Source: Escherichia phage vB_EcoM_phAPEC6
Length of the DNA stretch: 64,000 nucleotides
Reading direction: 5' to 3' (one strand)
Sequence record: MK817115.1
Shown: positions 7,971-63,274 of the stretch, piece by piece
Layout: every line of letters begins with the position of its first letter
Numbering within the stretch: the first letter of the stretch is position 1
The notes under the pieces: model-generated
The model's database searches: none
Told to the model about the DNA's origin: nothing
What the model saw: only the letters and a program-made list of their open reading frames with translations
Position numbers and translations under genes: made by a program

Positions 7971-8019
7971 GTATATTGGTACATTAACTATTATATCATA
8001 TTTTTATAAGTTGTCCCAC

Positions 8020-22459: not shown

Positions 22460-23086
22460 TTATGTATTAGAATAAATAATGTCCATTGCTTTTTTATGTA
22501 AATCATCAATAGTACTGTTATTCTGTACAATTATATCAGGATTGTTTATGCCAATCCAAGCCCACTCAGATTCGTGTACTGATTCTAGTTCAACTGGTTT
22601 AATATTAATATCCCCTTTATTATAAGAGGCCGCCAAACCATACCAATGTGGTAGAACACGTTGAACTTCAATAATAGTCCCATTTTGCGATCTAATCATT
22701 TTTAATTCATTTGGAAAACGGCAATCAGTGATGATGATATTTCCATCTATTTCTTGCATTGATTTTTCTAAACTGAATACCCAAATATCATTATGAAAAT
22801 ACTTACGCAAAATATTAGTACCATAATTCTGCAATACCCATCGAGGGGATACATCACTACGACCTAACTTATCACACCAGTACTGGTCCGGTTCTTCACG
22901 AATCTTACGACTTTCCTTAGTTGAACCTTCAAGCATTTCACGATCCCATCCAAAAATAGCAGCAACGGAATCTTTAAGATTAGTTGCAAATGACATTCTG
23001 GTGTAACCATTATTAATAAAAGTTTCTCCAAAAGTATCTTTACCACTTCCAATAGTACCGTTAATTGCAATTATTTGTCTTTCCAT
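22460..23086 (-). CDS. Deoxynucleoside monophosphate kinase (T4 gp1-like)
   Basis: P-loop NGTIGSGKDT at N-terminus; size and layout as T4 dNMP kinase. Confidence 0.65.
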   Translation of the reverse strand: MERQIIAINGTIGSGKDTFGETFINNGYTRMSFATNLKDSVAAIFGWDREMLEGSTKESRKIREEPDQYWCDKLGRSDVSPRWVLQNYGTNILRKYFHNDIWVFSLEKSMQEIDGNIIITDCRFPNELKMIRSQNGTIIEVQRVLPHWYGLAASYNKGDINIKPVELESVHESEWAWIGINNPDIIVQNNSTIDDLHKKAMDIIYSNT

Positions 23087-23104
23087 AATACTTCTCCATG
23101 TATA

Positions 23105-23374
23105 TTATATAAGTACTACTAAATCCTTTCCTACTAAACATTCAAGTAATTGAACTATAAACTCGCTCCCATAATATATAGTAACATAAGTGATGTAGAA
23201 TGTTTCTCCATTATCATCACGACATATACTCGCCCACGCGTTTATTCGATCTCTACCGAAAACATCAACGATTGATTCTTTTAAAAATTTCCAGAATTTT
23301 TCAGTTGACTCATAATCTAATGTAGGTGCACCACAACTATATTTGTTATACATTGCATCTATGTTGTTATTCAT
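23105..23374 (-). CDS. Hypothetical protein
   Basis: 89-aa ORF. Confidence 0.4.
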   Translation of the reverse strand: MNNNIDAMYNKYSCGAPTLDYESTEKFWKFLKESIVDVFGRDRINAWASICRDDNGETFYITYVTIYYGSEFIVQLLECLVGKDLVVLI

Positions 23375-23420
23375 GTTAGGTTCCTTAAGATTAATATTAT
23401 CATTATATCACATAATGTGA

Positions 23421-23447
23421 AAAAGACTCCATATAGGAGTCTTTTTT
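23421..23447. terminator. Intrinsic terminator hairpin
   Basis: AGACTCC-ATAT-AGGAGTCT flanked by A-run and TTTTTT. Confidence 0.55.
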
Positions 23448-23450
23448 AAT

Positions 23451-24257
23451 TTAACCAATAATCATACCTAGTGGTTCAGCACCATCTTGATAACGTTTCA
23501 AACGCTCTTTAAGCTGTTCCTGAAGTTGTAATCCTTCATTACGTAATGTATCACCATCCATAGAAAACGTTCCCTGTGGACCTGGAAGAGAAGCAAATTT
23601 GGCACGGTTACGACCCAACATAATCATGGCTTCAGACAATGCCCAATCACGTAGCCAAGGATAACTTTGCTGTCTTTGAAACAACAATGGTTCAGGAATA
23701 TTATGATATACGTGTAATAGTACTTCTTCAGTACCGCGAATATCACGATCTATAATTAATTTTTTGGTCATTGGGTTAAATTGAAATATAATATCACGAC
23801 CAAACATACGACCTACCAGTTCTTGGAACTGAAAACTAAAATCATATGTAGTTAGATCATATCCACCTGCATTTCGTGCTGAAGTCAATAAGTAAGTGTT
23901 GGTGAATGCTAGAGAAAACGGATCTACTGAGTTCCCACTACCAGAACTTAAGTAACCATTACCATAACGATAAATCTTTTTAACAATTTCAACTTCAGTT
24001 GGTAGCATATATACAGATTGTGAATCATAAAATTTCATATTTAAAAATGCTTCTTCTTTAGAAGCAGAACTCCACGCTCTGTAATTCGATACCGCATTAT
24101 CAATTGCAATTTCTAATTGACCATCAGTAATTTCTACCTCAACGGCCCCAGCACCCAACATTTGAGTGATAACATCTTTCAGTTTTTCACGATGGTCAAA
24201 GTTAGGAGCATCAGGGTTTCCACCCATATAATCGTAAGACATAAAAAAGCACCTCAT
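23451..24257 (-). CDS. Hypothetical protein
   Basis: 268-aa ORF followed by terminator hairpin. Confidence 0.5.
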   Translation of the reverse strand: MRCFFMSYDYMGGNPDAPNFDHREKLKDVITQMLGAGAVEVEITDGQLEIAIDNAVSNYRAWSSASKEEAFLNMKFYDSQSVYMLPTEVEIVKKIYRYGNGYLSSGSGNSVDPFSLAFTNTYLLTSARNAGGYDLTTYDFSFQFQELVGRMFGRDIIFQFNPMTKKLIIDRDIRGTEEVLLHVYHNIPEPLLFQRQQSYPWLRDWALSEAMIMLGRNRAKFASLPGPQGTFSMDGDTLRNEGLQLQEQLKERLKRYQDGAEPLGMIIG

Positions 24258-24503
24258 TAATGTTTATATACATTATTTAGAGGTGCTAATAGTTATTTTG
24301 AATTATACAAGCAGTACAGGTATACCAATGGAGTAAAATGCTCGGAATCTATTATATATATTAACTGAGTAACATATATTCCATATAGATCTCGTGATTT
24401 ATCTCTGTACATTAACAATGATTTATTTAAGTAAGGATCAACCCAGTACTTAATATCATTGTACTTCAACGTGTTGTTACGGTAACCTGACAGTTTCGAA
24501 TTT

Positions 24504-24881
24504 TTATTCAATTTTCTTACAATTACTCAGTAAGTGAATGATATCATCAGCAGTGAATGGTCCCAATACCAGAACTTCTTCACCATTACCGAAAATGCTC
24601 AATGGTACTGATTGCTGACCAGCTAGATATTCAATTTGTTCCAGTTCGAAAATGTCATCAGCAGCATAAACTACCTGCTCCATTTCATTATCTTTAATCC
24701 ATGACTGCCAATGTTCTTTAAACTTCTTAGCTTCGTATTCTTGAACATAGTTAGGTGATTCAGGGTTGTATTGATGTAACATAGTCATCCCAGCCATTAC
24801 TAATTCTTTAGGGGATGGTGTAGAATCTTTCAGTACTACGATAGCTTGGATAGTTTTTACTTTAACGTCATTAGCAGCCAT
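24504..24881 (-). CDS. Hypothetical protein
   Basis: 125-aa ORF. Confidence 0.45.
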   Translation of the reverse strand: MAANDVKVKTIQAIVVLKDSTPSPKELVMAGMTMLHQYNPESPNYVQEYEAKKFKEHWQSWIKDNEMEQVVYAADDIFELEQIEYLAGQQSVPLSIFGNGEEVLVLGPFTADDIIHLLSNCKKIE

Positions 24882-24893
24882 TATATACCTCTA

Positions 24894-25211
24894 TTATAGA
24901 ATGATTTTATTCTCAGGAACGAAAACTTTTGGAGTGTTTTCGATTGCTTTAATAGCATCAACATAAGCATCAACTAATGCAGGGTTTGCATCACTAACAC
25001 TAATAATGTTGGATTTATAAAAAATAACATTTTTCTCCATACTAACAAACTCTAGATAATCACGAAGAATGATTTCACCATTTTCGTCAGTCCCTAGTTG
25101 TGCTGGGTAGTTAACTACAACAGCTTCAGCAGAATCGGTTTGTAGAACTGCTAGTACTGGGCCAATGTTATTGATGTTTAGTAGTTTAACGGTCATAGTC
25201 ATTTTTGTCAA
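24894..25211 (-). CDS. Hypothetical protein
   Basis: 105-aa ORF. Confidence 0.45.
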   Translation of the reverse strand: MTKMTMTVKLLNINNIGPVLAVLQTDSAEAVVVNYPAQLGTDENGEIILRDYLEFVSMEKNVIFYKSNIISVSDANPALVDAYVDAIKAIENTPKVFVPENKIIL

Positions 25212-25221
25212 GTCCTTTTGT

Positions 25222-25698
25222 TTATTTTAGAATGTATAAGTGTTTTTCTGCATTGACCAGTCGGTGATCAATGATTTCTTTGATAACGTTCCAGTTACCG
25301 CCGCCCAAATCGGCTCCAATTTTCGGGAAGTGTACATGAACATCTCGATCAACTTTACAAAAATAATTTAGATGTTTGAACACATCGTCGATTGCATCAT
25401 AACTGACATATTTAGCACCGTCATTACCGTACATTTTTTGGGTAATACAGTTTGCAATAATCAAATTATCGTTAATTGCTGAATATGCAATTTGTCCAAT
25501 TCTAAGAAATCCCATTTCCTTTTCATATGCTTTATAATCATCATATGCCATTGGGTAACGATTTCTTAGCTCTTTTGCAAAACCTGAACCCATTTTACCC
25601 TGTGCGTTACAACCATGAGCAATTATATGTATTGCTGTTTTATCATCTGTAACAGTACTGAATAATTCAAACAGATTACCTCGGTGTTCATGAATCAT
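25222..25698 (-). CDS. Macro domain-like protein (ADP-ribose binding/processing candidate)
   Basis: AIHIIAHGCNAQGKMGSGFA resembles macro-domain N-A-A-N / G-G-G signature region; 158 aa. Confidence 0.45.
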   Translation of the reverse strand: MIHEHRGNLFELFSTVTDDKTAIHIIAHGCNAQGKMGSGFAKELRNRYPMAYDDYKAYEKEMGFLRIGQIAYSAINDNLIIANCITQKMYGNDGAKYVSYDAIDDVFKHLNYFCKVDRDVHVHFPKIGADLGGGNWNVIKEIIDHRLVNAEKHLYILK

Positions 25699-25710
25699 TA
25701 TATTCTCCGA

Positions 25711-25737
25711 AAAGAAAGGACTCTGTGGTCAGAGTCC
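25711..25737 (-). terminator. Intrinsic terminator
   Basis: GGACTCTG-loop-CAGAGTCC with U-rich tail on minus strand. Confidence 0.5.
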
Positions 25738-25747
25738 TTATTTTAAA

Positions 25748-26005
25748 TTATTCTTCTTCACCGAAACGGATTTTCTTTAATTCTTTTCGATGCTTTCTAG
25801 CTATTGTACTTTTGTGAAGTCTATTACTGCGTTTTGTGTCTTTTGTAATGTACCATGAATCTTCTGGTGCATCATAATCACAAAATCCATCTTCCGTAAT
25901 TGTTCCTAAAAATGCAGATTTTTTAGGAATATTAGTTTGAGCTTTAGTCTGAAATTGACCTTTTGCTAATTGTTCACGAAAACTGAGCATAATAGTATCT
26001 CCCAA
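25748..26005 (-). CDS. Hypothetical basic protein
   Basis: 85-aa ORF followed by terminator. Confidence 0.4.
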   Translation of the reverse strand: MGDTIMLSFREQLAKGQFQTKAQTNIPKKSAFLGTITEDGFCDYDAPEDSWYITKDTKRSNRLHKSTIARKHRKELKKIRFGEEE

Positions 26006-26036
26006 ATTGTTAAGAAGAACTTTTTGTTCTTCACAT

Positions 26037-26288
26037 TTATTTAGGGTTGCCAGAAACCTTCACATATTTGATAAATGCCAAAATATCATCTTTACTAAAA
26101 GATTTTACAATAAATTCGACAGCGGAATCATACTGTTCTTGTTTAGATAGATATTCTTTCATCTTGTTAATTTTAATCTGGGCTTTTTCTTTAGCTATTG
26201 AAATATCAGGAATTTTGAACTCTACTCCCAACGTATCAGCTAGTTGTTTTGCACGAGATGATACTTTTTCAATATCCATTAGTTCCAA
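26037..26288 (-). CDS. Hypothetical protein
   Basis: 83-aa ORF. Confidence 0.4.
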   Translation of the reverse strand: MELMDIEKVSSRAKQLADTLGVEFKIPDISIAKEKAQIKINKMKEYLSKQEQYDSAVEFIVKSFSKDDILAFIKYVKVSGNPK

Positions 26289-26527
26289 CGACCTTCTTTA
26301 AGACCTTCAATAAACCCAGTACAACCACCTGGCACATAAATGTCATTTACGAAAATTTGAGGAACTTGACGAACTGGTTCACCACAAATTTCAGACAGTT
26401 TTGAACCATCGATACCTTCAGCAACAATATCTACAAACTCCATTTCAAATTTATTTTGTTCACATACAGCTTTTGCAGTGTCGCAAAATTTACAACCAGT
26501 CTTGCGACCATAAATTTTAACTTTCAT
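26279..26527 (-). CDS. Glutaredoxin-like protein (T4 NrdC-like)
   Basis: KIYGRKTGCKFCDTAK with CxxC redox motif in glutaredoxin position; 82 aa. Confidence 0.7.
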   Translation of the reverse strand: MKVKIYGRKTGCKFCDTAKAVCEQNKFEMEFVDIVAEGIDGSKLSEICGEPVRQVPQIFVNDIYVPGGCTGFIEGLKEGRWN

Positions 26528-26528
26528 G

Positions 26529-26930
26529 TTATTTCCTTCTATTTCTTTGAAAAGCTTTAACAGCTTTAATAATACTGTTACACATTCGTTCAGTCAAATA
26601 CTTTTGACATTCTCGTACATCAATGTACATGAACTTATCCAATTCTGGATGACTCTTACCATATCTATTAGTGTAAGTACTTTTACAAACTAATTCATCT
26701 GGTATTGGTTTGTCTTTGGCAGTATAAAAGAAAAGTACTAACCTTTTTCCCTTTCTATATGATACATCACCAAGAAACAGAAGATCATCTTCATCGATTT
26801 CGTATCCTGTCTCTTCGAAACATTCACGTACAGCAGCTTCTTTGAAAGTTTCATTACCCTCAGCTTTCCCTTTAGGTAAATCCCAATGATTCTGTCCGTG
26901 TTGTATGTCCGATAAGTATCTGACCATCAC
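26529..26930 (-). CDS. NUDIX hydrolase
   Basis: Nudix box GKAEGNETFKEAAVRECFEETGYE. Confidence 0.8.
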   Translation of the reverse strand: MMVRYLSDIQHGQNHWDLPKGKAEGNETFKEAAVRECFEETGYEIDEDDLLFLGDVSYRKGKRLVLFFYTAKDKPIPDELVCKSTYTNRYGKSHPELDKFMYIDVRECQKYLTERMCNSIIKAVKAFQRNRRK

Positions 26931-27038
26931 GATAAAATATTATACCACAACTATAACGCATATCTTATCTCTTTGTCATCAATCGATGTTCAGATACTAA
27001 TAATTATATCAGTTATTGGTTTTTTGTCCCACTATTTT

Positions 27039-28151
27039 TTAGAACATTTGTTTGATTGCTTCGTAACGAAGTTCACAAACAAAATCACGAATTTCTGACG
27101 TTTCAAGTTCACCATCTTTGACCATTTGCTGAATATCAGGCAATTCAACATCAGTATAACGATCATAAACTTTAATAATTAGATCTTCAAGTTCTAAATC
27201 AATTTCTTTTCGCAAAATGAAGTATTCCAAAACTTTATAAAGGAATTCTTCACCTCCGTTATTTTTAATATTCATATCCAATAAAATATTACCCATTTCA
27301 ATAGGGGTCTTTTTACGGAATGTTTTGATATCATCACGGAAACGTTTGATATAATTACTAAATTTAACATACTTAACTGGAACTTTAATAGCACCGTTAA
27401 GTACTGAATCATTATTTACTTCTTCATTTTCAAGAAGAATAGACCACAGAAAATATGGTTTATATACATCTGTACAGTTCTCTGCAATATAATCAATAAG
27501 GTCTAAATTCTTTTTGGTCAAAGATGTATTAAACACCTTTTCGTAATAACCAAATTTACTTAGCGTCTTAAGGAACTTTGCAGGCTTTTCTTCGGAAAAT
27601 GCTTTTTCGAATTCCACAAACACACGGTCAGGAACAAGATGATTTAGCTCACCACTATTGACCATTCCAATAGCGAGTTCCTCAGTGCTTTCATGGATAG
27701 TAAAGTCAGAATAACGAGTAGCAAATCGAGCAAGACGTAACACACGTAATGGATCTTCTTTAAAATGGTCAGACACATGACGTAGTACCTTGTTCTTGAT
27801 ATCAGCTTTACCACCGTATGGGTCAATGTGAATTTGTAGTACTGGATCATACGAAATTGCATTTATTGTTAGGTCACGGCGATACAAATCTTGTTCGAGT
27901 GTTACGCCTTTTGTATCCACTTCAAAGCCACCATATCCAGTACCAGTTTTACGCTCAGTACGGGCTAATGCGTGTTCATTACCTTCTGGACTTAGATATA
28001 CAGGGAAATCTTTACCTACTTGCTTATAGCCAATACTTTGCAAGTACTTAATATCAGATTCAGTTGCTCCGACAATGACATAATCTTTGTCTTTTGCACG
28101 AAGACCCATTAAACGGTCACGGACGTAGCCACCAACCAAATACTTTTTCAT
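27039..28151 (-). CDS. cca: CCA-adding tRNA nucleotidyltransferase (head domain, no obvious HD domain)
   Basis: MKKYLVGGYVRDRLMGL...ARTERK...RRDLTINA...EDPLRVLRLARFA matches bacterial CCA enzyme motifs. Confidence 0.85.
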   Translation of the reverse strand: MKKYLVGGYVRDRLMGLRAKDKDYVIVGATESDIKYLQSIGYKQVGKDFPVYLSPEGNEHALARTERKTGTGYGGFEVDTKGVTLEQDLYRRDLTINAISYDPVLQIHIDPYGGKADIKNKVLRHVSDHFKEDPLRVLRLARFATRYSDFTIHESTEELAIGMVNSGELNHLVPDRVFVEFEKAFSEEKPAKFLKTLSKFGYYEKVFNTSLTKKNLDLIDYIAENCTDVYKPYFLWSILLENEEVNNDSVLNGAIKVPVKYVKFSNYIKRFRDDIKTFRKKTPIEMGNILLDMNIKNNGGEEFLYKVLEYFILRKEIDLELEDLIIKVYDRYTDVELPDIQQMVKDGELETSEIRDFVCELRYEAIKQMF

Positions 28152-28152
28152 A

Positions 28153-28275
28153 TTATTCCCCCATCAACCAATCACGCAAACGTTCCCAGAAGCCTTTGGG
28201 CTTATATTCTGGGTATTCATATTCATCAGTGCCTTGCTCGGAAACACCCCAATCTTCTTCTAACATAGCAATCAT
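28153..28275 (-). CDS. Small acidic protein (40 aa), not in ORF track
   Basis: Hand-translated MIAMLEEDWGVSEQGTDEYEYPEYKPKGFWERLRDWLMGG; GGAGG RBS upstream; stop overlaps cca start. Confidence 0.4.
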   Translation of the reverse strand: MIAMLEEDWGVSEQGTDEYEYPEYKPKGFWERLRDWLMGE

Positions 28276-28286
28276 AATGCCTCCAA

Positions 28287-28709
28287 TTAAATTAATCTAT
28301 CACGTAGACGGTCGTAATATTTTTCGTGTATAGCTAGTATACACTGATATGCAGAATAGTCAATGCCAAATGTATCATCAATGAACATGTACTGATCAAG
28401 TGTTTCTGGTCCATTATCATCAACTGGTAATGTCCCTTCTTTTTTTGATAGGGTGTGCCACATCAACTCACTTTCAATATGGTGAGTTGCGTATGTCAAT
28501 TCAATCTTACTTTTTCTTAGTAAAATTAACAATTCATCATTGTCGTCGAGTGCATTACGAAATTTAATACGAACAGTACCCTGAAAATTATTAGTGTACA
28601 TAACACGATGTTGATTATATGTAACTAAACCACGTCTTTCAGTACTGATTTCATGTTCAGCAAAGTACTTTAACGTTTCATTAAATTTTGGAATTTTAGT
28701 AACGTCCAA
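28287..28709 (-). CDS. Hypothetical protein, paralog of 28696-29112
   Basis: Shared motif F(I/E)DDTFGID(Y/F)..YQ.I. Confidence 0.5.
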   Translation of the reverse strand: MDVTKIPKFNETLKYFAEHEISTERRGLVTYNQHRVMYTNNFQGTVRIKFRNALDDNDELLILLRKSKIELTYATHHIESELMWHTLSKKEGTLPVDDNGPETLDQYMFIDDTFGIDYSAYQCILAIHEKYYDRLRDRLI

Positions 28710-29112
28710 TCACATAATCCTCATAAAGTTCGTATACCCTCATTATACTCTGATATGTTTCAAAGTCAATGCCAAAGGTATCCTCAATGAACTGATATTG
28801 CATAAACTCTTCCTCTGTAGCAGCAATAGGAAGAGTCCCGTTTCGTTGTTCTGTTGATTGAACATCCTCAATATACATCAACACTATACTTTCATCCAGA
28901 TTTATATCTATCATAAAAACATCTTCACTATAAAATAAGTTATATGTACGGATGAAGAGATTTCCTGTTCTATCATAACTTGACACGTGTGTTTCATAAT
29001 ACATTTTATCTAAACTAAAGAACAAACCTGTACTATCTGGCTTTTTAGTATTTTTTAATTTAATTTCGATAGCATCAATCATAGGTTTAATATCAAACTT
29101 TTTCATATACAA
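28696..29112 (-). CDS. Hypothetical protein, paralog of 28287-28709
   Basis: Shared motif FIEDTFGIDFETYQSI. Confidence 0.5.
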   Translation of the reverse strand: MYMKKFDIKPMIDAIEIKLKNTKKPDSTGLFFSLDKMYYETHVSSYDRTGNLFIRTYNLFYSEDVFMIDINLDESIVLMYIEDVQSTEQRNGTLPIAATEEEFMQYQFIEDTFGIDFETYQSIMRVYELYEDYVIGRY

Positions 29113-29301: not shown

Positions 29302-29697
29302 TTATAAAAAGTAATTATACAGTTTATTGTACAATATAAAAAGGTCTTTCACATTATCATAAGTAATATCAGATACATCATGAATTAATGATAACTGAAA
29401 AAATGAAGCTTCGTCTATTTCTGCTGGAATTATAACATCACCATCGTCTTCGTCCATTTTATTGGTGTAGTATTTTATGTGATCTACATTCAACTCAATA
29501 GAAAACGCAATGTTGGTTTTTGTATAATCTTCAATTAATCCAATATATTGAGATTTTTCATTAATAAAAAATCCAATCCCAACACAACGGTTATCTGGAT
29601 ATGGATAGTACCATCTATTAATAACTAAGTGTTCAGGTAAGTCCATATCATGTGTTGATATTAGAGATTTTACAATTTCCATCCAGGAATAATTCAT
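29302..29697 (-). CDS. Hypothetical protein
   Basis: 131-aa ORF. Confidence 0.45.
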   Translation of the reverse strand: MNYSWMEIVKSLISTHDMDLPEHLVINRWYYPYPDNRCVGIGFFINEKSQYIGLIEDYTKTNIAFSIELNVDHIKYYTNKMDEDDGDVIIPAEIDEASFFQLSLIHDVSDITYDNVKDLFILYNKLYNYFL

Positions 29698-29750: not shown

Positions 29751-30083
29751 TTACTCTTCGTTTTCTGTCAAATCATCAAGAACTGGGTGTTCTGGATGGT
29801 TTCGGCGGTGTAATTTAATGCTTTTGTCTTTACTGAATACAGTTTCCATTTTTTCAAATGAATCACCAATTGCTTTGTATAAATCTGCTGCATCGGCAGT
29901 AACTGATTTACTACCTGATGTTAGAGTCACAGAGTATTGAGACTTATGCTCTTTCTTCACATGAACTTCAATATCCATTACAGTTGAAGTACGGAACTTT
30001 TCAAGACATTTAGCACCATCGTAAATTGCATCTTGAATTGCAAGAGTAAAATCAACATTACCTTGAATATTTAATTTTAGCAT
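29751..30083 (-). CDS. hpf: Ribosome hibernation promoting factor (HPF/RaiA/YfiA family) homologue
   Basis: MLKLNIQGNVDFTLAIQDAI...LEKF...DLYKAIGDSFEKME aligns by eye with E. coli HPF MQLNITGNNVEITEALREFV...DMYAAIDGLIDKL; about 110 aa as short-form HPF. Confidence 0.6.
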   Translation of the reverse strand: MLKLNIQGNVDFTLAIQDAIYDGAKCLEKFRTSTVMDIEVHVKKEHKSQYSVTLTSGSKSVTADAADLYKAIGDSFEKMETVFSKDKSIKLHRRNHPEHPVLDDLTENEE

Positions 30084-37441: not shown

Positions 37442-38131
37442 TCACTTCGTTCTCTCGTAACTCAAGAAGTCACTGCGTTTACTTCGTAAACTAGTTCCTT
37501 CTGAAAATGATAATGTACTTTAAAAACTTGACGGGATTTGTTGAGGACTATTACATCCCCCCGCAGGGGAATGAAGGTAATAAAAAAGAGACAATTAAGT
37601 CTCTCTTGACGATGATGGCATCGGATATTATCGAATTGCGAATTTCTCAAATTTTGGACGGATCTTTCTTGTACCAAAATTTAGAGAGCGAAAGCGGGTT
37701 GCTCGGTTTCTCTCTATCGCAGTCATATGCAACGGTCGCTGGTCTTTTCATCAACAGCACTCAGTACTAACTCTATTCGATCAAAGTAGTACTTGTTCTC
37801 AAATTTTGGACGCAACTTTCTTGTAAAAATTGCGTCCGCTATCCTTGAACTCCCTTAGCAAATCTGGTAAGGTGCGAACCTTATACATCTATCTAGGAAC
37901 TCTCTGTATGCTTATCGGAGTTCTTTATACAGCCGTGTCGCCGTGATTCGTGGTCTTACATCGTGTTTGTTTGAATGCCAGTACTCTAACAGGTTTCTTC
38001 TGCTGTTCGCTACAACGGTAAAGCTCATCTATCCTTTACATTTTCAAGAGAAGTAGGTTCTCAGTGTCCATTTTTCAATGTCCGTTGTCATTTTCTATAT
38101 ACATTATATCATTGGAACATATAATGTCCCA
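37442..38131 (-). ncRNA. Candidate structured non-coding RNA locus (ORF-poor, GC-enriched, repeated hairpin modules)
   Basis: About 690 bp without a credible ORF in an otherwise gap-free gene array; direct repeat TTCTCAAATTTTGGACG...CTTTCTTGTA at 37644-37673 and 37796-37825, each forming a hairpin; additional hairpins; locally elevated GC. Confidence 0.4.
38103..38130 (-). promoter_or_regulatory. Weak sigma70-like promoter candidate facing into the non-coding island
   Basis: Minus strand GGGACA, 16 nt, TGaTATAAT; -35 matches 4 of 6. Confidence 0.25.
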
Positions 38132-44277: not shown

Positions 44278-45510
44278 TTACTTATACCATTGCATTTCTC
44301 TAATATCAATGATAATTTTTGATGCTAACTTGATGTTTGGTTTTTTAGGAAGTACTGATTTCTTATATAGAACATCACGAATGTATTGTACTTTATCATC
44401 GAAATATTCTAATACTTCTTCATACTTCCATTTACCATTACGAATATCCATCAACATTTGTGCATCTGGTCGTTTAACTTGAATAATTCCACTTTGTAAC
44501 GCTTCTTCTGCACTATTCAAAAGTCGGATTGTGTGCATAGCATGTTTACAATCGTATCCGTGTTGTGATTCTAAAATAGCACGTTTGGCATTACGATTTT
44601 CTTTCCATTTATGATAACTTTTCCTATTCTCACTATTTTCCTGATATTCTTTTTCGTTAAATTTGACAATTAGTTCTGGTTTGGTTTTCAACTCTTCAGT
44701 ACTACGTTCTTTTGAAAAATAACGCAATGAACCATCATGGTTAATAGTGCTTTCATTAGGATTCTTAACAATCGCAAAAATGTTTTCTCCGTAATGAATT
44801 AGTTCATAACCATTATTAAAATTCAATAAATTGAAATCACGATCAAGAATTTTTTCAGTAGTGTAGTTATGCACTAATCTTACGAAATGATATTGCTTTA
44901 ATGGATTTTTCGAAACTAACTGCAATGATGTATCACGCATATATTTTTCAAAATCAATCTTTTTAGCATTAAATGGATGTAAGTTGGATGTATCTAAACG
45001 TTCAACAAGATACTGTGGGAATGAATCATACATCCACGCAAGAACCTCATCGACAGGGTGTTCTTCTAAAATCTCATTTAATCGTTTTTCAGCAATACGC
45101 TCTTTATCCATCCAACCGTGATGATTTGTCATACGCTTAATCTGATTATATGCATATCCAGTGTATGAAAATGCAATCTTGGAACTAAGAAGTTTTTGGT
45201 TAAATGAACGAAGATAGTCATAAATTTCAGTACTTTCCACAATGTGTTCAGGTTCAACCCAAAGTGATTCAAGAATATTAGGGTTAGCTTCAGTGTATAA
45301 TTTTAAATACTGATTCAACTCATAGAATTTAGTATCTTCTTCGCTTTTGTCAGCTACCTCGTTGACCTTATAGAAGGGTGTAAGAATAAATTCTTTATTA
45401 GCAAGAAAAATACCACGATAATCAGTATCACTTTCCGGTGTACTGGTTCCGTAGGCTTGTGACCCAGCCAAGTGTTTCACTATTGTTTGTTCAATATATT
45501 GGTTATTCAT
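44278..45510 (-). CDS. Pol-beta superfamily nucleotidyltransferase
   Basis: N-terminal GSQAYGTSTPESDTDYRG (G[SG]...D.D nucleotidyltransferase signature); 410 aa. Confidence 0.55.
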   Translation of the reverse strand: MNNQYIEQTIVKHLAGSQAYGTSTPESDTDYRGIFLANKEFILTPFYKVNEVADKSEEDTKFYELNQYLKLYTEANPNILESLWVEPEHIVESTEIYDYLRSFNQKLLSSKIAFSYTGYAYNQIKRMTNHHGWMDKERIAEKRLNEILEEHPVDEVLAWMYDSFPQYLVERLDTSNLHPFNAKKIDFEKYMRDTSLQLVSKNPLKQYHFVRLVHNYTTEKILDRDFNLLNFNNGYELIHYGENIFAIVKNPNESTINHDGSLRYFSKERSTEELKTKPELIVKFNEKEYQENSENRKSYHKWKENRNAKRAILESQHGYDCKHAMHTIRLLNSAEEALQSGIIQVKRPDAQMLMDIRNGKWKYEEVLEYFDDKVQYIRDVLYKKSVLPKKPNIKLASKIIIDIREMQWYK

Positions 45511-45908
45511 AGATAAATTGTTAACTCCTTTAAGAAACCATTATAATAACGATTAAAGTCATGTTCTAATGTTTTATAATCATCAAAACTAAAACCTAAA
45601 TTGATAATTGTATCTTCTTGAAAGAAAGTTTCTTCATTCATACATTCAATAGGTTCGTAATTAATTCCACCTTTGAAAACTTTTGTAAAAAACATTCCAT
45701 CATTATTAATTTCAACATACATAAAATTATTTTCTGGGTCACGAGGACAGACGATATTCAGTGAACTATTTCCACTTGTATTGTACTCATAAGAAATTAT
45801 ATCAAAAGAATCAATACCATAACACTTAGATTTTTCTTTATCGCCAAATACTTTTCTATCTGTACTCATATTGCGTATAGTGCTATAGATATCATCAACT
45901 GTAGTCAT
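45507..45908 (-). CDS. Hypothetical protein
   Basis: 133-aa ORF. Confidence 0.45.
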   Translation of the reverse strand: MTTVDDIYSTIRNMSTDRKVFGDKEKSKCYGIDSFDIISYEYNTSGNSSLNIVCPRDPENNFMYVEINNDGMFFTKVFKGGINYEPIECMNEETFFQEDTIINLGFSFDDYKTLEHDFNRYYNGFLKELTIYL

Positions 45909-45910
45909 AG

Positions 45911-46420
45911 TTAACCACCATACTTTGACTTGTATGTTTCAAGTGATAAAGATATACGATTTTGCTTTTTAATTCTTTCATCAATATCCTTTGAATTCTT
46001 CACACTTCGGTATACGTCAGCTAATAAATTATAATCTTCTTTATTTGAGCTATGCTGTGTCCAACCTATGTCTGTTTTAATACGAACATTTGCTTTATTT
46101 GACGAGTAAAAGAAACTGAAACCATTTGACCCATCAAAAATATCAAAAGTATCTACCCAATCACCATAAGGAAAACTCATCGGGACTGACTCGTGGTCGA
46201 TTGTGATATCCGATAAATTTTTTGAACAGTACTTCGCAAAGTGATAAACAATTGGATCACATTTAGATAATTCATATTTGTATTCAATGATAGTTTTTCT
46301 ATTAGCATCATTGATAGCATATTCTTTCATCAATGGGCTTTTTTTGATGATAAGAGTCCACAGAAACGATTCTAATCCGGTTTCATCAACTTTTTGTTTC
46401 TTTTTGAAAAATGAAATCAT
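45911..46420 (-). CDS. Hypothetical protein, tandem paralog family member 3
   Basis: Shares D.RK.(I/L)IEYKYELSK-type motif with the two upstream genes. Confidence 0.5.
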   Translation of the reverse strand: MISFFKKKQKVDETGLESFLWTLIIKKSPLMKEYAINDANRKTIIEYKYELSKCDPIVYHFAKYCSKNLSDITIDHESVPMSFPYGDWVDTFDIFDGSNGFSFFYSSNKANVRIKTDIGWTQHSSNKEDYNLLADVYRSVKNSKDIDERIKKQNRISLSLETYKSKYGG

Positions 46421-46938
46421 TTATATAAACCCTTAATTTTCTGTCTATTATGTATATCATTTTGCTGGATTTTCAATTTAGTAAGGTTGTTTCTTACACC
46501 TTCAACTCCACGCATTATTTGTAACATAATTAGTGATTCGTCATATGTTAGTACATTGCTATTATTATCGATATATACTTTCACTCCACTTTCAAGATAA
46601 TCATTTTCTTTGGAGTTAAAGTTTCTAATAGCAAACTTAACGCCATTTGATGTATCACTGAAAACATATCGTTCCGCACCGTAGAATGTTTTTCCACGAA
46701 ATAAACCGCCGTCTTCCCACTTCCAACGACTAGATTCATAATCATTAACGTAATCAATGATTAAAGAAAGTAAAGGGTGTTTGCTCAATTTATATTTTGC
46801 ATCTAACAGGATACGTCTATCATTATCTGTGGTGATAATATCCTTTAGTGAGTAGCTTTTAGATATAATTTTAAAGATAATTTCATGCCAAATTAAAGTA
46901 CTGTTTTGTTTTCCAACTGATCCAAAAAACATATCCAT
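46417..46938 (-). CDS. Hypothetical protein, tandem paralog family member 2
   Basis: DNDRRILLDAKYKLSK motif. Confidence 0.5.
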   Translation of the reverse strand: MDMFFGSVGKQNSTLIWHEIIFKIISKSYSLKDIITTDNDRRILLDAKYKLSKHPLLSLIIDYVNDYESSRWKWEDGGLFRGKTFYGAERYVFSDTSNGVKFAIRNFNSKENDYLESGVKVYIDNNSNVLTYDESLIMLQIMRGVEGVRNNLTKLKIQQNDIHNRQKIKGLYK

Positions 46939-46944
46939 TCCTCA

Positions 46945-47511
46945 TTAGTATAAATCAGTAATGTCTTTGTATGCATTAATCTGTTTTTGTTGTAATGAAA
47001 GTTCATTGAGTTTAGTTACCATTTTATCTACACCAACACGTGTATAGAAAATAATAAATGAATCTAAATTGCCTAGAGTAATTCTTGAACTGTAATTTGA
47101 AAGTTTTCTTGCATAAACATAAATTTCTTCTTCACTTGGTAAACGTTTCTCAATCGGCCAGCTTTCCACACCATTCGGCTCATAATCGATTTCAAATTCA
47201 ACTCCCATCACTGTGTCTTGAATGAGATCCGTATATGAACCACCGTAAAAATACTCTCTTGGTTTGGCTCTCCAACGAGGACTAAATGGGTCAGATGCGT
47301 ATTCTTTTACAAATTTGTAAAAGGACATTTTACTGAGCATATACTTCATCTCAATTAGTGCTTTGCGGTCATCATCAGTTTTAAACTCTGCTTTGAGCGA
47401 TGGACTTTTACACAGTAACTTAACTAAATTGATGTACATCTTTAATGTACGTTGTTCTTTCATTTCTTTGATTTTGTGACGTTTTGGTGGCGGTAATAAA
47501 GATTTGACCAT
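46945..47511 (-). CDS. Hypothetical protein, tandem paralog family member 1
   Basis: DDDRKALIEMKYMLSK motif. Confidence 0.5.
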   Translation of the reverse strand: MVKSLLPPPKRHKIKEMKEQRTLKMYINLVKLLCKSPSLKAEFKTDDDRKALIEMKYMLSKMSFYKFVKEYASDPFSPRWRAKPREYFYGGSYTDLIQDTVMGVEFEIDYEPNGVESWPIEKRLPSEEEIYVYARKLSNYSSRITLGNLDSFIIFYTRVGVDKMVTKLNELSLQQKQINAYKDITDLY

Positions 47512-59746: not shown

Positions 59747-60127
59747 TCATTTAGTAAAACACGAATTATTACTGATAAGTTCATCAAGTACGTTTTGTAC
59801 TTCGATAGAATTAATATCAACTTTGTAATAATTATAGTTTTTAACTCTAAAATGTTCTTTTGATATATCAACTTTAAATTCAATAATATCAAGATTACCA
59901 ATAAAATCAGACTTATCAGTTCTTAAATCCAAAATACCTAATTCCGGTTTTTGTGGTTTACATAAAATCAAACCAAATTTATTTTCTTCAAATGCCTGAT
60001 TAAACATATCATAATAATCACTAATAACAAATCTAATATTATCAGTGCTTAACTTTCCTGATTTTCCTTTTTTATAAACAGAAACAATGTTTAGTTCAAA
60101 GGTTTTACCAAAGCGTGTGATTTTCAT
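59747..60127 (-). CDS. Hypothetical protein
   Basis: 126-aa ORF. Confidence 0.45.
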   Translation of the reverse strand: MKITRFGKTFELNIVSVYKKGKSGKLSTDNIRFVISDYYDMFNQAFEENKFGLILCKPQKPELGILDLRTDKSDFIGNLDIIEFKVDISKEHFRVKNYNYYKVDINSIEVQNVLDELISNNSCFTK

Positions 60128-63206: not shown

Positions 63207-63274
63207 TTTATATCTCCTTCTGTATTATGATAACAACATTATATCATGTATGGGACATTATGTCCCATACAATA

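What the first reader, a model, noticed from the sequence alone, without database searches (positions are those of the whole stretch)
25222..28275. Clustered macro domain, NUDIX, glutaredoxin and CCA-adding enzyme: candidate RNA-repair or counter-defence module
Four consecutive co-directional genes encode a macro-like protein (ADP-ribose handling), a NUDIX hydrolase, a glutaredoxin and a CCA-adding tRNA nucleotidyltransferase, preceded by a 40-aa acidic peptide gene. CCA enzymes in phages are generally interpreted as repair of tRNA 3' ends damaged by host tRNA-targeting nucleases; macro and NUDIX enzymes can remove ADP-ribose or nucleotide-derived immune signals or modifications. Co-localisation suggests a functional unit rather than scattered metabolic genes.
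Basis: partly seen in the sequence, partly recalled or inferred. Interest (0 to 1): 0.55.

Follow-up and report, generated by a model that had tools for sequence, protein, structure and literature searches.

The report
Known jumbo-phage accessory genes; frameshifted Nudix
The flagged genes are real but already annotated accessory genes of a PBECO4/121Q-type E. coli jumbo phage, split into three predicted transcription units rather than one module; the unreported feature is that the Nudix gene can only be read in full through a conserved +1 frameshift.

Summary
The window is an Asteriusvirus (PBECO4/121Q-like, about 348 kb) E. coli jumbo phage, 99.9% identical to deposited genomes. RefSeq already annotates these genes as tRNA nucleotidyltransferase, nudix hydrolase, glutaredoxin and macro-domain protein.

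All four domain calls hold. The macro call fails Pfam's cut-off but is confirmed by sequence matches to solved macrodomains and by fold.

The anatomy differs from the finding:
- Two small ORFs lie between the glutaredoxin and the macro gene.
- A conserved promoter-like motif separates CCA from NUDIX.
- A conserved terminator-like hairpin separates the NUDIX–Grx–ORF83–ORF85 unit from the macro gene.

The block is collinear in all Rak2-like genera, but so is the surrounding region. In 36 unrelated CCA-carrying phage lineages, CCA sits next to RlaP or Pth2-like genes, almost never next to NUDIX, macro or Grx.

NUDIX is a homologue of T4 NudE.1. The macro protein is T4 Tk.4-like and belongs to the SCO6735/BT1257 subclass, whose studied member reverses DarT DNA ADP-ribosylation. 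Three of six phage tRNA genes lack an encoded CCA.

New observation: the Nudix gene needs a +1 frameshift at ACA-CGG-A. CGG is the rarest codon in the window, and both halves of the gene are under purifying selection.

The parts
28153..28275 (-). 40-aa acidic ORF. Its stop codon overlaps the CCA start (TAATATG). Function unknown.
   Evidence: phrog_34272 at 7e-33. Annotated as hypothetical in PBECO4 and 121Q.
27039..28151 (-). Class II tRNA nucleotidyltransferase (CCA-adding type), 370 aa. It has the head and neck domains and a clade-specific C-terminal body, but no HD domain.
   Evidence: PF01743 plus PF12627. NCBIfam E. coli-type Cca PRK10885 scores 272 bits, over residues 1-207 only. phrog_2244 at 3e-116. 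Motifs GGxVRD..DxD, RRD and EDPLRVLR are present. PDB class II enzymes match.
27003..27030 (-). Predicted promoter in the CCA-NUDIX gap: GGGACA, 16 nt, then extended -10 TGATATAAT.
   Evidence: TGNTATAAT occurs 17 times against 7.5 expected, 14 of them on the coding strand. The motif is conserved in the same gap in K64-1, CBB, fENko-Kae01 and pEa44. The class GGACR-N15-19-TAKAMT occurs 5 times against 1.2 expected. Not shown experimentally.
26529..26961 (-). NudE.1-like Nudix hydrolase gene in two frames: codons 1-21 (26961-26899), one extra C (26898), then codons 22-143 (26897-26529). The conceptual product is 143 aa.
   Evidence: The joined protein aligns end to end with the uninterrupted 140-145 aa homologues. 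It is 37% identical to T4 NudE.1, E=4e-20. phrog_1185. The Nudix box GKAEGNETFKEAAVRECFEETGY is present.
26893..26907 (-). Candidate +1 frameshift site. CATACAACACGGACA is invariant. The heptamer ACA CGG A lies at 26901-26895.
   Evidence: Identical in six frameshifted lineages whose flanking synonymous sites vary. CGG is the rarest sense codon in the window, 3 of 18,639. The phage encodes tRNA-Thr(UGU) and tRNA-Gly(UCC).
26279..26527 (-). Grx1-like dithiol glutaredoxin (CKFC), 82 aa.
   Evidence: PF00462. NCBIfam GrxA family at 1e-18, below its cut-off. E. coli Grx1 1EGO at 3e-11.
26037..26288 (-). Small ORF (80-83 aa) of unknown function in a variable slot. CBB and pEa44 carry a YqeY-domain gene plus another ORF here instead.
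   Evidence: phrog_34640. No CBB homologue. CBB_195 matches YqeY PF09424 at 26.3 bits, just under the 27-bit cut-off.
25748..25990 (-). ORF85 (80 aa from ATG 25990). It has a basic C-terminus, is the most conserved protein of the block, and has no known function.
   Evidence: 69-90% identical across five genera and metagenomic lineages. No PDB or Pfam match. phrog_15319.
25707..25739 (-). Intrinsic-terminator-like hairpin plus U-tract between ORF85 and the macro gene.
   Evidence: Present in 8 genomes of 5 genera, with different stem sequences that still pair. Not shown experimentally.
25222..25698 (-). Stand-alone macrodomain (158 aa) of the T4 Tk.4 family, SCO6735/BT1257 subclass of ALC1-like macrodomains.
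   Evidence: phrog_335 at 1e-45. Gln87 and Asn31 are invariant and align with SCO6735 Gln85 and Asn27.
24894..25211 (-). ORF of about 102-105 aa, function unknown, directly downstream of the macro gene.
   Evidence: phrog_527. Conserved position in all genera.
24504..24881 (-). Pth2-like (archaeal/eukaryotic-type) peptidyl-tRNA hydrolase candidate, 125 aa.
   Evidence: The top family-profile hits in PDB are Pth2: 2zv3 at E=0.0024 and 1wn2. A 63%-identical homologue carries PF01981. AlphaFold2 gives pLDDT 71. The top 12 Foldseek PDB hits are all Pth2/Bit1, TM about 0.6. The GenBank note on fENko-Kae01 cites HHpred 97.8%.

Best explanation
This is an inherited block of separately acting accessory genes in an Asteriusvirus jumbo phage, not a single machine. 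It forms three predicted transcription units.

1. The CCA-adding enzyme lies at the end of an upstream unit. It is a class II enzyme without an HD domain. Its most likely job is to complete the 3' ends of the phage's own tRNA-Thr(UGU), tRNA-Asn(GUU) and tRNA-Gly(UCC), whose genes lack an encoded CCA. It can incidentally repair damaged CCA ends.

2. A promoter-like motif drives NudE.1-like Nudix, Grx1-like glutaredoxin, a variable small ORF and the conserved ORF85, ending at a terminator-like hairpin. By homology with T4 NudE.1, the Nudix hydrolyses ADP-ribose, NAD, Ap3A, FAD and NAD-RNA caps. It can be made full-length only by a +1 ribosomal frameshift at ACA-CGG-A. The glutaredoxin most likely serves as a disulfide reductant, as Grx1 does for ribonucleotide reductase.

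3. The macro gene, ORF105 and the Pth2-like gene are reached by read-through of that hairpin. The SCO6735-type macrodomain most likely removes ADP-ribose from DNA thymidine (DarT2-type damage) and/or from proteins. The Pth2-like enzyme would recycle peptidyl-tRNA.

This gives two loose themes. One is tRNA upkeep (CCA and Pth2). The other is ADP-ribose/NAD handling, where the macrodomain releases ADP-ribose and the Nudix degrades it.

Shown here: gene identities, folds, conservation of the motifs, and the frameshift anatomy. Inferred: all enzymatic activities, promoter and terminator function, and any cooperation between the genes.
For: - Identity: 99.9% to Asteriusvirus genomes; annotations.
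- Domains.
- Macro fold and subclass. SCO6735 activity and its essential Gln85 and Asn27: PMC9411070.
- NudE.1 homology. Its substrates.
- tRNA genes without encoded CCA. The RaK2 authors made the same proposal for their CCA enzyme.
- Pth2 fold.
- Promoter and terminator motifs conserved across genera.
- Variable slot inside the block.
- No recurrence of CCA with NUDIX, macro or Grx in 36 other lineages, but recurrence with RlaP (7) and Pth2-like (4).
- T4 carries tk, tk.4 (macro), e (assigned from gene size), nudE.1 and gene 1 in one 16-kb region. K64-1 carries the same set. This points to shared ancestry for the co-localisation.
- Frameshift.
Against: - No transcript, protein or activity data exist for this phage.
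- The promoter and terminator are motif-level predictions. Read-through could make the block one long transcript.
- Macro and Nudix co-occur in DNA viruses more often than chance (PMC9503650). Their proximity is kept in every Rak2-like genus, so a real functional link between these two cannot be excluded.
- The host's own Cca could mature the phage tRNAs, which would leave the phage enzyme free for a repair role.
- Val25 of SCO6735 is Gly29 in the phage protein.
- The Pth2 model has only moderate confidence (pLDDT 71).
Confidence: 0.6

Rival explanations
1. One reading: the genes form one coordinated counter-defence or RNA-repair module. CCA (with Pth2) restores tRNAs attacked by host nucleases. 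Macro and Nudix destroy ADP-ribose-derived modifications or immune signals. The genes are co-regulated and jointly selected.
For: - The gene order CCA-NUDIX-Grx-...-ORF85-macro-...-Pth2 is kept in all 18 Rak2-like loci and in five named genera.
- CBB inserts a YqeY (tRNA-related) domain gene into the block.
- HPF/RaiA and, in CBB and fENko-Kae01, an RNA ligase lie just upstream.
- Published surveys place jumbo-phage CCA, Pth2 and RNA ligases in RNA repair, and Macro plus Nudix in countering ADP-ribose derivatives.
Against: - The whole surrounding region is equally collinear, so synteny within this clade does not discriminate.
- No recurrence outside the clade.
- A conserved promoter motif and a conserved terminator hairpin lie inside the block.
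- The glutaredoxin has no place in the scheme.
- The CBB_181-type RNA ligase is absent from the window. No Escherichia phage appears among the organism counts listed for its homologues.
- KptA and 2H partners, which would generate ADP-ribose-1''-phosphate, were not looked for.
Confidence: 0.17
2. Pure legacy housekeeping: the genes are leftovers of the T4-superfamily variable region between tk and gene 1. They serve nucleotide and cofactor hygiene (Nudix, Grx, dNMP kinase) and phage tRNA maturation, with no role in host-defence conflicts. The macro protein only clears metabolic ADP-ribose derivatives such as O-acetyl-ADP-ribose or ADP-ribose-1''-phosphate.
For: - T4 has tk, tk.4, e (assigned from gene size), nudE.1 and gene 1 within 16 kb. 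K64-1 has tk, lysozyme, CCA, nudix, macro and dNMP kinase in the same stretch.
- The T4 NudE.1 catalytic mutant shows only a lysis delay of about 15 minutes and a normal burst.
- The NUDIX promoter motif also precedes the thymidylate synthase unit.
- Poa1p, an ADP-ribose-1''-phosphate phosphatase, is among the closest folds.
Against: - The closest characterised relative of the macro protein is a DNA and protein ADP-ribosylhydrolase that neutralises DarT.
- Phage NADAR (AdfN) and macrodomain (AdfM) orphan antitoxins are now proven counter-defences.
- Strong purifying selection on these accessory genes across genera argues for a selected function.
Confidence: 0.18
3. The Nudix gene is not recoded. 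Either it is a decaying pseudogene, or only the annotated 133-aa ORF (or a split pair of a 29-aa peptide and a 133-aa protein) is made.
For: - All database annotations call only the 3' ORF.
- No stimulatory RNA structure lies downstream (z = -0.57).
- No SD-like element was evident upstream on visual inspection of the sequence; this was not searched systematically.
- The P-site tRNA-Thr cannot re-pair in the +1 frame.
Against: - Both parts are under purifying selection in lineages with synonymous divergence of about 0.5. For the ORF2 part pN/pS is 0.05-0.12. The ORF1 part has 0-1 nonsynonymous and 0-3 synonymous changes, depending on the comparison.
- The annotated-frame N-terminus accumulates nonsynonymous changes.
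- The ORF1 ATG has a purine-rich AAGAG stretch just upstream, whereas the internal GTG/ATG has none (reading of the sequence).
- A Nudix protein lacking residues 1-21 would lose the first strands of the fold (inference).
Confidence: 0.3

Closest known systems
Bacteriophage T4 NudE.1 (gene e.1) Nudix hydrolase
   Same: 37% identity over 130 residues, E=4e-20. Same PHROG, phrog_1185. Same size class and Nudix box. Stand-alone protein in a T4-superfamily phage, located a few genes from the lysozyme gene.
   Different: Here the gene is interrupted by a 1-nt insertion and needs a +1 frameshift. The T4 gene and the K64-1, CBB, fENko-Kae01 and pEa44 genes are uninterrupted. Substrates were not tested here.
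SCO6735 (S. coelicolor) / BT1257 subclass of ALC1-like macrodomains; T4 Tk.4
   Same: Best sequence and fold matches: profile E of 1e-26 and 1e-20, TM 0.83. Gln in place of the TARG1/DarG catalytic Lys, with the partner Asn conserved (Q87 and N31 are invariant). Same PHROG as T4 Tk.4; 30% identical to it.
   Different: Only about 24-25% identical to the solved structures. SCO6735 Val25 is Gly29 here. This is a phage-borne stand-alone protein, and no activity data exist for Tk.4 or this protein.
DarG2 antitoxin macrodomain and phage AdfM (PhiKZ gp104)
   Same: Same ALC1-like fold class. PADLOC DarG 1.4e-10 and NCBIfam DarG 3.9e-8. There is precedent for a phage stand-alone macrodomain reversing DarT2 DNA ADP-ribosylation.
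   Different: The catalytic Lys80 is replaced by Gln. There is no DarT-binding C-terminal domain. The score is far below the DarG equivalog cut-off (33 against 250 bits). Not compared directly with AdfM.
E. coli multifunctional Cca and other phage class II CCA-adding enzymes
   Same: The head domain is close to gamma-proteobacterial Cca (272 bits over residues 1-207), with all head motifs present. Homologous head domains occur in 496 phage records.
   Different: No HD phosphohydrolase domain. The C-terminal 160 residues are specific to the Rak2-like clade; full-length matches occur in only 72 records.
Programmed +1 frameshift sites: yeast Ty1 (CUU-AGG-C), Ty3 (GCG-AGU-U), bacterial prfB (CUU-UGA-C). 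Comparison from established knowledge.
   Same: A heptamer with a slow A-site codon (the rare Arg codon CGG) followed by a +1-frame codon (GGA, Gly) for which a tRNA is supplied. As in Ty3, the P-site tRNA cannot re-pair.
   Different: No upstream SD-like stimulator as in prfB was seen, and no downstream structure. Efficiency is unknown and nothing has been demonstrated. The gene class is a phage Nudix enzyme rather than a release factor or a retroelement.
Jumbo-phage RNA-repair and NAD/ADP-ribose networks described by Iyer, Aravind and colleagues (PMC7824862, PMC9503650)
   Same: These surveys already list CCA-adding enzyme, Pth2, RlaP and RNA ligases as jumbo-phage RNA repair or ribosome rescue genes. 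They list Macro plus Nudix as processors of ADP-ribose derivatives, encoded in early regions alongside RNA-repair genes.
   Different: The passages read do not describe this particular block, its transcription units or the frameshift.

Membership tests
Class II CCA-adding tRNA nucleotidyltransferase | PolyA_pol head domain with motif A (GGxVRD...DxD), motif B (RRD) and motif D (EDxxR) | tested here: met
   PF01743 at 3e-18. VGGYVRD..KDKDY, RRDLTINA and EDPLRVLR are invariant in alignment A6.
Class II CCA-adding tRNA nucleotidyltransferase | C-terminal HD phosphohydrolase domain of the E. coli 'multifunctional' Cca | tested here: not met
   No PF01966 hit. The NCBIfam Cca models match residues 1-207 only and fall below cut-off. 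The Barbavirus enzyme does have an HD domain.
Class II CCA-adding tRNA nucleotidyltransferase | Adds C-C-A, rather than only CC, only A, or poly(A) | not testable with these tools
   Best matches are to Cca equivalogs rather than to PcnB (272 against 95 bits). No enzymology.
T4 NudE.1-type Nudix hydrolase | Nudix box GX5EX7REUXEEXGU and homology to T4 NudE.1 | tested here: met
   GKAEGNETFKEAAVRECFEETGY is present. PF00293 at 7.5e-14 on the joined protein. BLASTP against T4 NudE.1 gives 4e-20. phrog_1185.
T4 NudE.1-type Nudix hydrolase | A single continuous reading frame | tested here: not met
   A 1-nt insertion lies after codon 21 in all Asteriusvirus-type genomes examined.
Macro domain (PF01661) | Pfam gathering score | tested here: not met
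   16.4 bits against a cut-off of 22. T4 Tk.4 passes with 27.7 bits, and many homologues carry PF01661.
Macro domain (PF01661) | Macro fold | tested here: met
   AlphaFold2 pLDDT 94.7. Foldseek against PDB gives TM 0.83 to 2fg1, and most of the top 50 hits are macrodomains.
DarG2 / TARG1 ADP-ribosylhydrolases | Catalytic lysine (DarG K80, TARG1 K84) | tested here: not met
   This position aligns with the invariant Gln87 (hhalign 97.9% against TARG1; alignment to M. tuberculosis DarG).
DarG2 / TARG1 ADP-ribosylhydrolases | DarT-binding C-terminal domain of DarG | tested here: not met
   The protein is 158 aa and consists of the macro domain only. The NCBIfam DarG match covers model positions 18-139 of 338.
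SCO6735/BT1257 subclass of ALC1-like macrodomains | Gln at the Lys position plus the stabilising Asn (SCO6735 Gln85 and Asn27, both essential) | tested here: met
   Q87 and N31 are invariant in 52 family members and align with SCO6735 Gln85 and Asn27. Residue roles are from PMC9411070.
SCO6735/BT1257 subclass of ALC1-like macrodomains | Hydrolysis of thymidine-linked ADP-ribose on ssDNA, and rescue from DarT | not testable with these tools
   Needs a biochemical or plating assay.
Glutaredoxin (GrxA/Grx1 type) | Thioredoxin fold with a CxxC dithiol; family score | tested here: inconclusive
   PF00462 passes (34.6 against 22.9 bits) and CKFC is present. The NCBIfam GrxA equivalog is below cut-off (67 against 84 bits). 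The closest solved structure is E. coli Grx1.
Pth2 peptidyl-tRNA hydrolase (ORF 24504-24881) | Pth2 fold or family signature | tested here: met
   The top 12 Foldseek hits are all Pth2/Bit1, on a model of moderate confidence (pLDDT 71). The profile hits PDB Pth2 at E=0.0024. Homologue P0129 carries PF01981. The protein itself has no Pfam hit. Catalytic residues were not examined.
Programmed +1 ribosomal frameshift | Two overlapping frames, both under purifying selection, that together encode one homologous protein | tested here: met
   For the ORF2 part pN/pS is 0.05-0.12. The ORF1 part shows 0-1 nonsynonymous and 0-3 synonymous changes, depending on the comparison.
Programmed +1 ribosomal frameshift | A slow-to-decode codon at the shift site and a conserved shift sequence | tested here: met
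   CGG accounts for 3 of 18,639 codons in the window. The 15-mer is invariant in six lineages. Uninterrupted relatives use other synonymous codons at this position.
Programmed +1 ribosomal frameshift | A trans-frame protein is actually produced | not testable with these tools
   No proteomic or reporter data for an Asteriusvirus were found. None of the Asteriusvirus papers returned by the search mentions a frameshift.
Single operon or functional gene module | Co-transcription without internal promoter or terminator | tested here: not met
   A conserved extended -10 promoter motif and a conserved hairpin with U-tract lie inside the block. This is a prediction only.
Single operon or functional gene module | The gene association recurs in unrelated genomes | tested here: not met
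   In 36 non-Rak2 CCA lineages: NudE.1-like 0, Tk.4-like macro 1, Grx 2, other Nudix-box proteins 2, RlaP 7, Pth2-like 4.

The most novel reading that the evidence does not exclude
The NudE.1-like Nudix hydrolase of Asteriusvirus-type jumbo phages is made only through a Ty3-like programmed +1 frameshift at ACA-CGG-A. CGG is almost banned from the phage's own genes and depends on a scarce host tRNA-Arg(CCG). The flanking codons ACA and GGA are read by phage-encoded tRNA-Thr(UGU) and tRNA-Gly(UCC). Both of these tRNA genes lack an encoded CCA and therefore depend on a CCA-adding enzyme, and the phage's own enzyme is encoded immediately upstream. Nudix output would then report the balance between phage tRNA maturation and the host tRNA pool. 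In parallel, the Tk.4-type macrodomain would be an orphan SCO6735-like antitoxin against DarT2-type DNA ADP-ribosylation, with the Nudix clearing the released ADP-ribose. I put the frameshift alone at about 0.5-0.6. The full regulatory loop plus the anti-DarT2 role is much less likely.
Probability: 0.2. Interest if true: 0.7.

Novelty: already known. Interest (0 to 1): 0.33.

Why it matters
As submitted, the finding adds little. The genes are annotated in RefSeq, and the RNA-repair and ADP-ribose counter-defence reading of such genes in jumbo phages is already published. Two results make it worth a short follow-up.

1. The macro protein, and by extension T4 Tk.4, one of T4's uncharacterised genes, falls in the SCO6735 subclass with the essential Gln and Asn retained. 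That gives a concrete, cheap test: plating on DarTG2 hosts. Only NADAR (AdfN) and the chimallivirus AdfM are so far known as enzymatic anti-DarT factors.

2. A conserved +1 frameshift in a phage enzyme gene, at a heptamer built on the phage's most avoided codon, would be a rare bacterial-virus example of Ty-like recoding. It would also correct the annotation of this gene in the 35 matching phage records. It warns against treating the annotated 133-aa 'nudix hydrolase' as the real product.

Tried and rejected
- Downstream RNA structure as a frameshift stimulator: folding 26800-26961 gave z = -0.57, which is not significant.
- Expanded-anticodon or CGG-reading phage tRNA. The six ARAGORN tRNAs are ordinary. 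By my manual parsing, Thr and Gly have normal 7-nt anticodon loops. The seventh tRNA-like sequence reads as Arg(UCU)-like and would not read CGG.
- DarG membership for the macro protein: rejected on the catalytic Lys and on domain architecture. I first took the missing Lys to argue against DNA de-ADP-ribosylation. I withdrew that after reading that SCO6735 does this reaction with Gln85.
- An RNA-ligase-centred repair pathway in this window. The CBB_181-type ligase, the YqeY gene and the K64-1 tk gene have no homologue in the window. No Escherichia phage appears among the listed organism counts for ligase homologues. RlaP is present, but 16 kb away.
- Function for ORF85: no PDB or Pfam match. 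ORF83, ORF105 and the 40-aa ORF gave only PHROGs of unknown function.
- PADLOC gave only the DarG hit for the macro protein and a weak PDC-S07 hit for the Nudix.
- There are no tRNA genes in the window itself.
- The generic sigma-70 promoter scan was not enriched overall (30 found against 33 expected). Only the extended -10 class is enriched.
- The fENko-Kae01 proteomics data cannot place CCA or Nudix in the virion, because the preparation was a >300 kDa retentate.
- The fEgEco12 genome paper mentions none of these genes.

Full report
**What the window is.**
- Megablast of 25000-28400 finds 35 phage records. The best are 99.9% identical (Escherichia phages SHEFM2K and CRJP21). PBECO4 is 99.1% identical and 121Q 98.1%.
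- The window is therefore part of an Asteriusvirus, a Rak2-like E. coli jumbo myophage of about 348 kb.
- RefSeq already names PBECO4 gp028-gp034 and 121Q 538-544 as macro domain-containing protein, hypothetical (two genes), glutaredoxin, nudix hydrolase, tRNA nucleotidyltransferase and hypothetical.
- All genes in this part of the window are on the minus strand.

**Checking the observation.**
- CCA enzyme (27039-28151): PF01743 and PF12627. It matches the E. coli-type Cca model strongly, but only over residues 1-207.
  - It keeps the class II motifs GGxVRD..DxD, RRD and EDxxR.
  - It has no HD domain. Its C-terminal 160 residues are found only in the Rak2-like clade: 72 of 496 phage records with a match cover at least 80% of the query.
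- NUDIX ORF: PF00293. Glutaredoxin: PF00462, with a CKFC motif. The closest solved structure to the glutaredoxin is E. coli Grx1.
It is nevertheless secure.
  - phmmer against PDB gives 8e-16 to BT1257 and 8e-12 to SCO6735.
  - A 52-member family profile gives 1e-26 and 1e-20.
  - The AlphaFold2 model has pLDDT 94.7. Its best fold matches are BT1257 (TM 0.83), Poa1p, SCO6735, DarG and TARG1.
- The description 'four consecutive genes' is wrong in detail. Two conserved ORFs of unknown function lie between Grx and macro.

**Transcription architecture (predicted).**
- The 108-bp gap between CCA and NUDIX holds GGGACA-16 nt-TGATATAAT.
  - Extended -10 motifs (TGNTATAAT) occur 17 times against 7.5 expected, 14 of them on the coding strand.
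  - The same promoter-like element sits in the same gap in K64-1, CBB, fENko-Kae01 and pEa_SNUABM_44, while the surrounding sequence varies.
  - The class GGACR-N15-19-TAKAMT occurs 5 times against 1.2 expected. One copy lies upstream of the unit that contains thymidylate synthase.
- Between ORF85 and the macro gene lies a GC-rich hairpin followed by a U-tract. It is present in eight genomes of five genera, with different stem sequences that still pair.
- The block therefore reads as: [..40-aa ORF-CCA] | promoter-[NUDIX-Grx-variable ORF-ORF85]-terminator | [macro-ORF105-Pth2-like..].
- The slot after Grx is variable. It holds ORF83 here, and a YqeY-domain gene plus another ORF in CBB and pEa44.

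**Is the co-localisation meaningful?**
- Within the Rak2-like clade the order is kept everywhere. This covers Asteriusvirus, Alcyoneusvirus K64-1, Mimasvirus CBB, Eneladusvirus, fENko-Kae01, 18 IMG/VR loci and three metagenomic lineages.
However, the flanking lysozyme, HPF/RaiA, neck, dNMP kinase and sheath genes are just as collinear, so this does not show functional linkage.
- As an independent test, I collected 54 further viral contigs that encode a CCA head domain, forming 36 clusters at 70% identity. I searched 8 kb on each side with profiles built from this clade. Counts of clusters with a hit:

| Neighbour within 8 kb of CCA | Clusters (of 36) |
|---|---|
| NudE.1-like | 0 |
| Other Nudix-box proteins | 2 |
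| Tk.4-like macro | 1 |
| Grx | 2 |
| RlaP nucleotidyltransferase | 7 |
| Pth2-like hydrolase | 4 |

- In Rheinheimera phage Barba8S, the macro and glutaredoxin genes lie about 13 and 27 kb from CCA. A Pth2-like gene abuts CCA.
- CCA's recurrent partners are therefore RNA-repair or tRNA-rescue genes, not the genes in the finding.
- T4 carries tk, tk.4 (macro, phrog_335), the lysozyme gene e (identified here from gene size only), nudE.1 (phrog_1185) and gene 1 (dNMP kinase) within 16 kb. K64-1 has the same set around this block. This suggests the proximity is partly inherited from a T4-superfamily ancestor.

**What the parts most likely do.**
- NUDIX. It is 37% identical to T4 NudE.1. In vitro, NudE.1 hydrolyses ADP-ribose, Ap3A, FAD, NAD and NAD-RNA caps. 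Its catalytic mutant only delays lysis.
- Macro. It belongs to the ALC1-like class.
  - The catalytic Lys of TARG1 and DarG aligns with an invariant Gln87.
  - This is the SCO6735/BT1257 signature. SCO6735 reverses DarT thymidine-linked DNA ADP-ribosylation and rescues E. coli from DarT. Its Gln85 and Asn27 are essential (PMC9411070). Both are invariant in the phage family, as Q87 and N31.
  - Stand-alone phage ADP-ribosylhydrolases are now proven anti-DarT factors: AdfN in T4 and AdfM in PhiKZ.
  - A macrodomain that frees ADP-ribose and a Nudix that degrades it make a plausible pair, as proposed in general terms for phages. This is inference.
- CCA. PBECO4 encodes tRNA-Thr(UGU), Asn(GUU), Met(CAU), Ser(GCU), Ser(UGA) and Gly(UCC). 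The Thr, Asn and Gly genes lack an encoded CCA. Maturing these tRNAs is the simplest role, as the RaK2 authors also proposed. Repair of damaged 3' ends remains possible.
With CCA it forms a tRNA-upkeep pair that recurs elsewhere.
- The window also holds HPF/RaiA (29751-30083) and RlaP (44278-45510).
- The RNA ligase that lies 6 kb upstream of CCA in CBB and fENko-Kae01 is absent from the window. No Escherichia phage appears among the organism counts listed for its homologues.

**The frameshift, the one unreported feature.**
- Reading the minus strand, an ATG at 26961 with a purine-rich AAGAG stretch just upstream opens MRYSCGIIFYRDGQILIGHTT... This is the missing N-terminus of the Nudix fold, and it runs into a stop at 26874-26872. 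The annotated ORF is in the +1 frame.
- Homologues in K64-1, CBB, fENko-Kae01 and pEa44 are uninterrupted, at 140-144 aa. A DNA alignment shows a single extra C in the Asteriusvirus sequence: ACA ACA C GGA.
- Skipping that C gives a 143-aa protein that aligns end to end with the homologues.
- The insertion is present in all six Asteriusvirus-type genomes aligned. It is also present in a more distant metagenomic lineage, with the gene 86% identical at the nucleotide level and the macro protein about 72% identical. Sister lineages have intact genes.
- Both parts are under purifying selection.
  - In the ORF1 part, the synonymous/nonsynonymous counts are 2/0 against WPEC5 (L003), 3/0 against ph0011 (L005), 0/0 against 121Q (L002) and UE-S1 (L004), and 2/1 against the metagenomic lineage (L091).
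  - In the ORF2 part, pN/pS is 0.05-0.12 at pS up to 0.55.
  - The annotated-frame N-terminus changes nonsynonymously.
- The 15-mer CATACAACACGGACA is invariant, although flanking synonymous sites vary.
- The zero-frame codon at the shift, CGG, is the rarest sense codon in the window: 3 of 18,639.
- The flanking codons ACA and GGA are those read by the phage's own tRNA-Thr(UGU) and tRNA-Gly(UCC).
- The layout resembles Ty3-type +1 frameshifting at a hungry codon (established knowledge). No stimulatory structure was found, and no product has been observed.
- None of the Asteriusvirus papers returned by the literature search mentions a frameshift.

**Verdict.**
- It is not supported as a single functional unit.
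- The score for the finding as given is low. The frameshift and the SCO6735-type assignment of the Tk.4 family are the two leads worth testing.

Noticed in passing
window 26872-26961 (minus strand); shift site 26893-26907: The Nudix gene is split by a conserved 1-nt insertion, ACA ACA C GGA. Its N-terminal 21 codons are in another frame and are missing from every database annotation seen. This is a likely +1 frameshift at the phage's rarest codon, CGG.
   Followed up: yes
window 24504-24881 (minus strand): A 125-aa ORF annotated 'hypothetical' in PBECO4 and 121Q has a Pth2 peptidyl-tRNA hydrolase fold. A Pth2-like gene also abuts CCA in unrelated phages (Barbavirus and three other lineages).
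   Followed up: yes
window 25748-25990 (minus strand): ORF85 is an 80-aa protein with a basic C-terminus. It always sits just upstream of the terminator and macro gene. It is more conserved (69-90% identity across genera) than CCA or macro, and has no detectable homology to anything known.
   Followed up: partly
L015 (PBECO4 185001-235000): 22837-27112: Three of the six phage tRNA genes (Thr-UGU, Asn-GUU, Gly-UCC) lack an encoded 3' CCA. A seventh, marginal tRNA-like sequence at 25838-25916 (29.3 bits) looks like Arg(UCU) with a long insertion, and it does encode CCA.
   Followed up: partly
window 44278-45510 (minus strand): An RlaP-family (RNA-ligase-associated Pol-beta) nucleotidyltransferase is annotated only as 'nucleotidyltransferase'. 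No recognisable RNA ligase lies next to it. The four downstream ORFs (45507-47511) have no Pfam hit.
   Followed up: partly
window 7990-8016, 27003-27029, 29429-29455, 38103-38129, 63238-63265 (all minus strand): A recurring promoter-like class, GGACR-N15-19-TG(A/T)TATAAT, occurs 5 times against 1.2 expected. It resembles the 'divergent RpoD-like' promoters described for phage CBB. One copy precedes the unit containing the DprA-like and thymidylate synthase genes.
   Followed up: partly
window 28287-28709 and 28696-29112 (minus strand); possibly also 29302-29697: Tandem paralogous ORFs upstream of the 40-aa ORF share a C-terminal motif (..QY.FI.DTFGID...YQ.I....E.Y.). They are 41% identical over 54 aa, E=5e-12. 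Function unknown. The similarity of the third ORF was judged by eye only.
   Followed up: partly
window 29751-30083 (minus strand): A phage-encoded HPF/RaiA (ribosome hibernation factor, PF02482) lies 1.6 kb upstream of CCA. Its position is conserved in most Rak2-like loci examined.
   Followed up: partly
window 60124-61095 (minus strand): A 323-aa protein has a C-terminal WGR domain (PF05406, 1e-10) and an unassigned N-terminal 250 residues. WGR domains accompany PARP-type enzymes, so a link to ADP-ribosylation was considered but not examined.
   Followed up: no
whole window (81 ORFs): There is extreme avoidance of CGG (3 of 18,639 codons). CCC (14) and AGG (22) are also avoided.
   Followed up: partly
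L003 (WPEC5) 4656-4778: The homologue of the 40-aa acidic ORF is annotated 'nudix hydrolase' in the WPEC5 record. This is evidently an annotation error.
   Followed up: no
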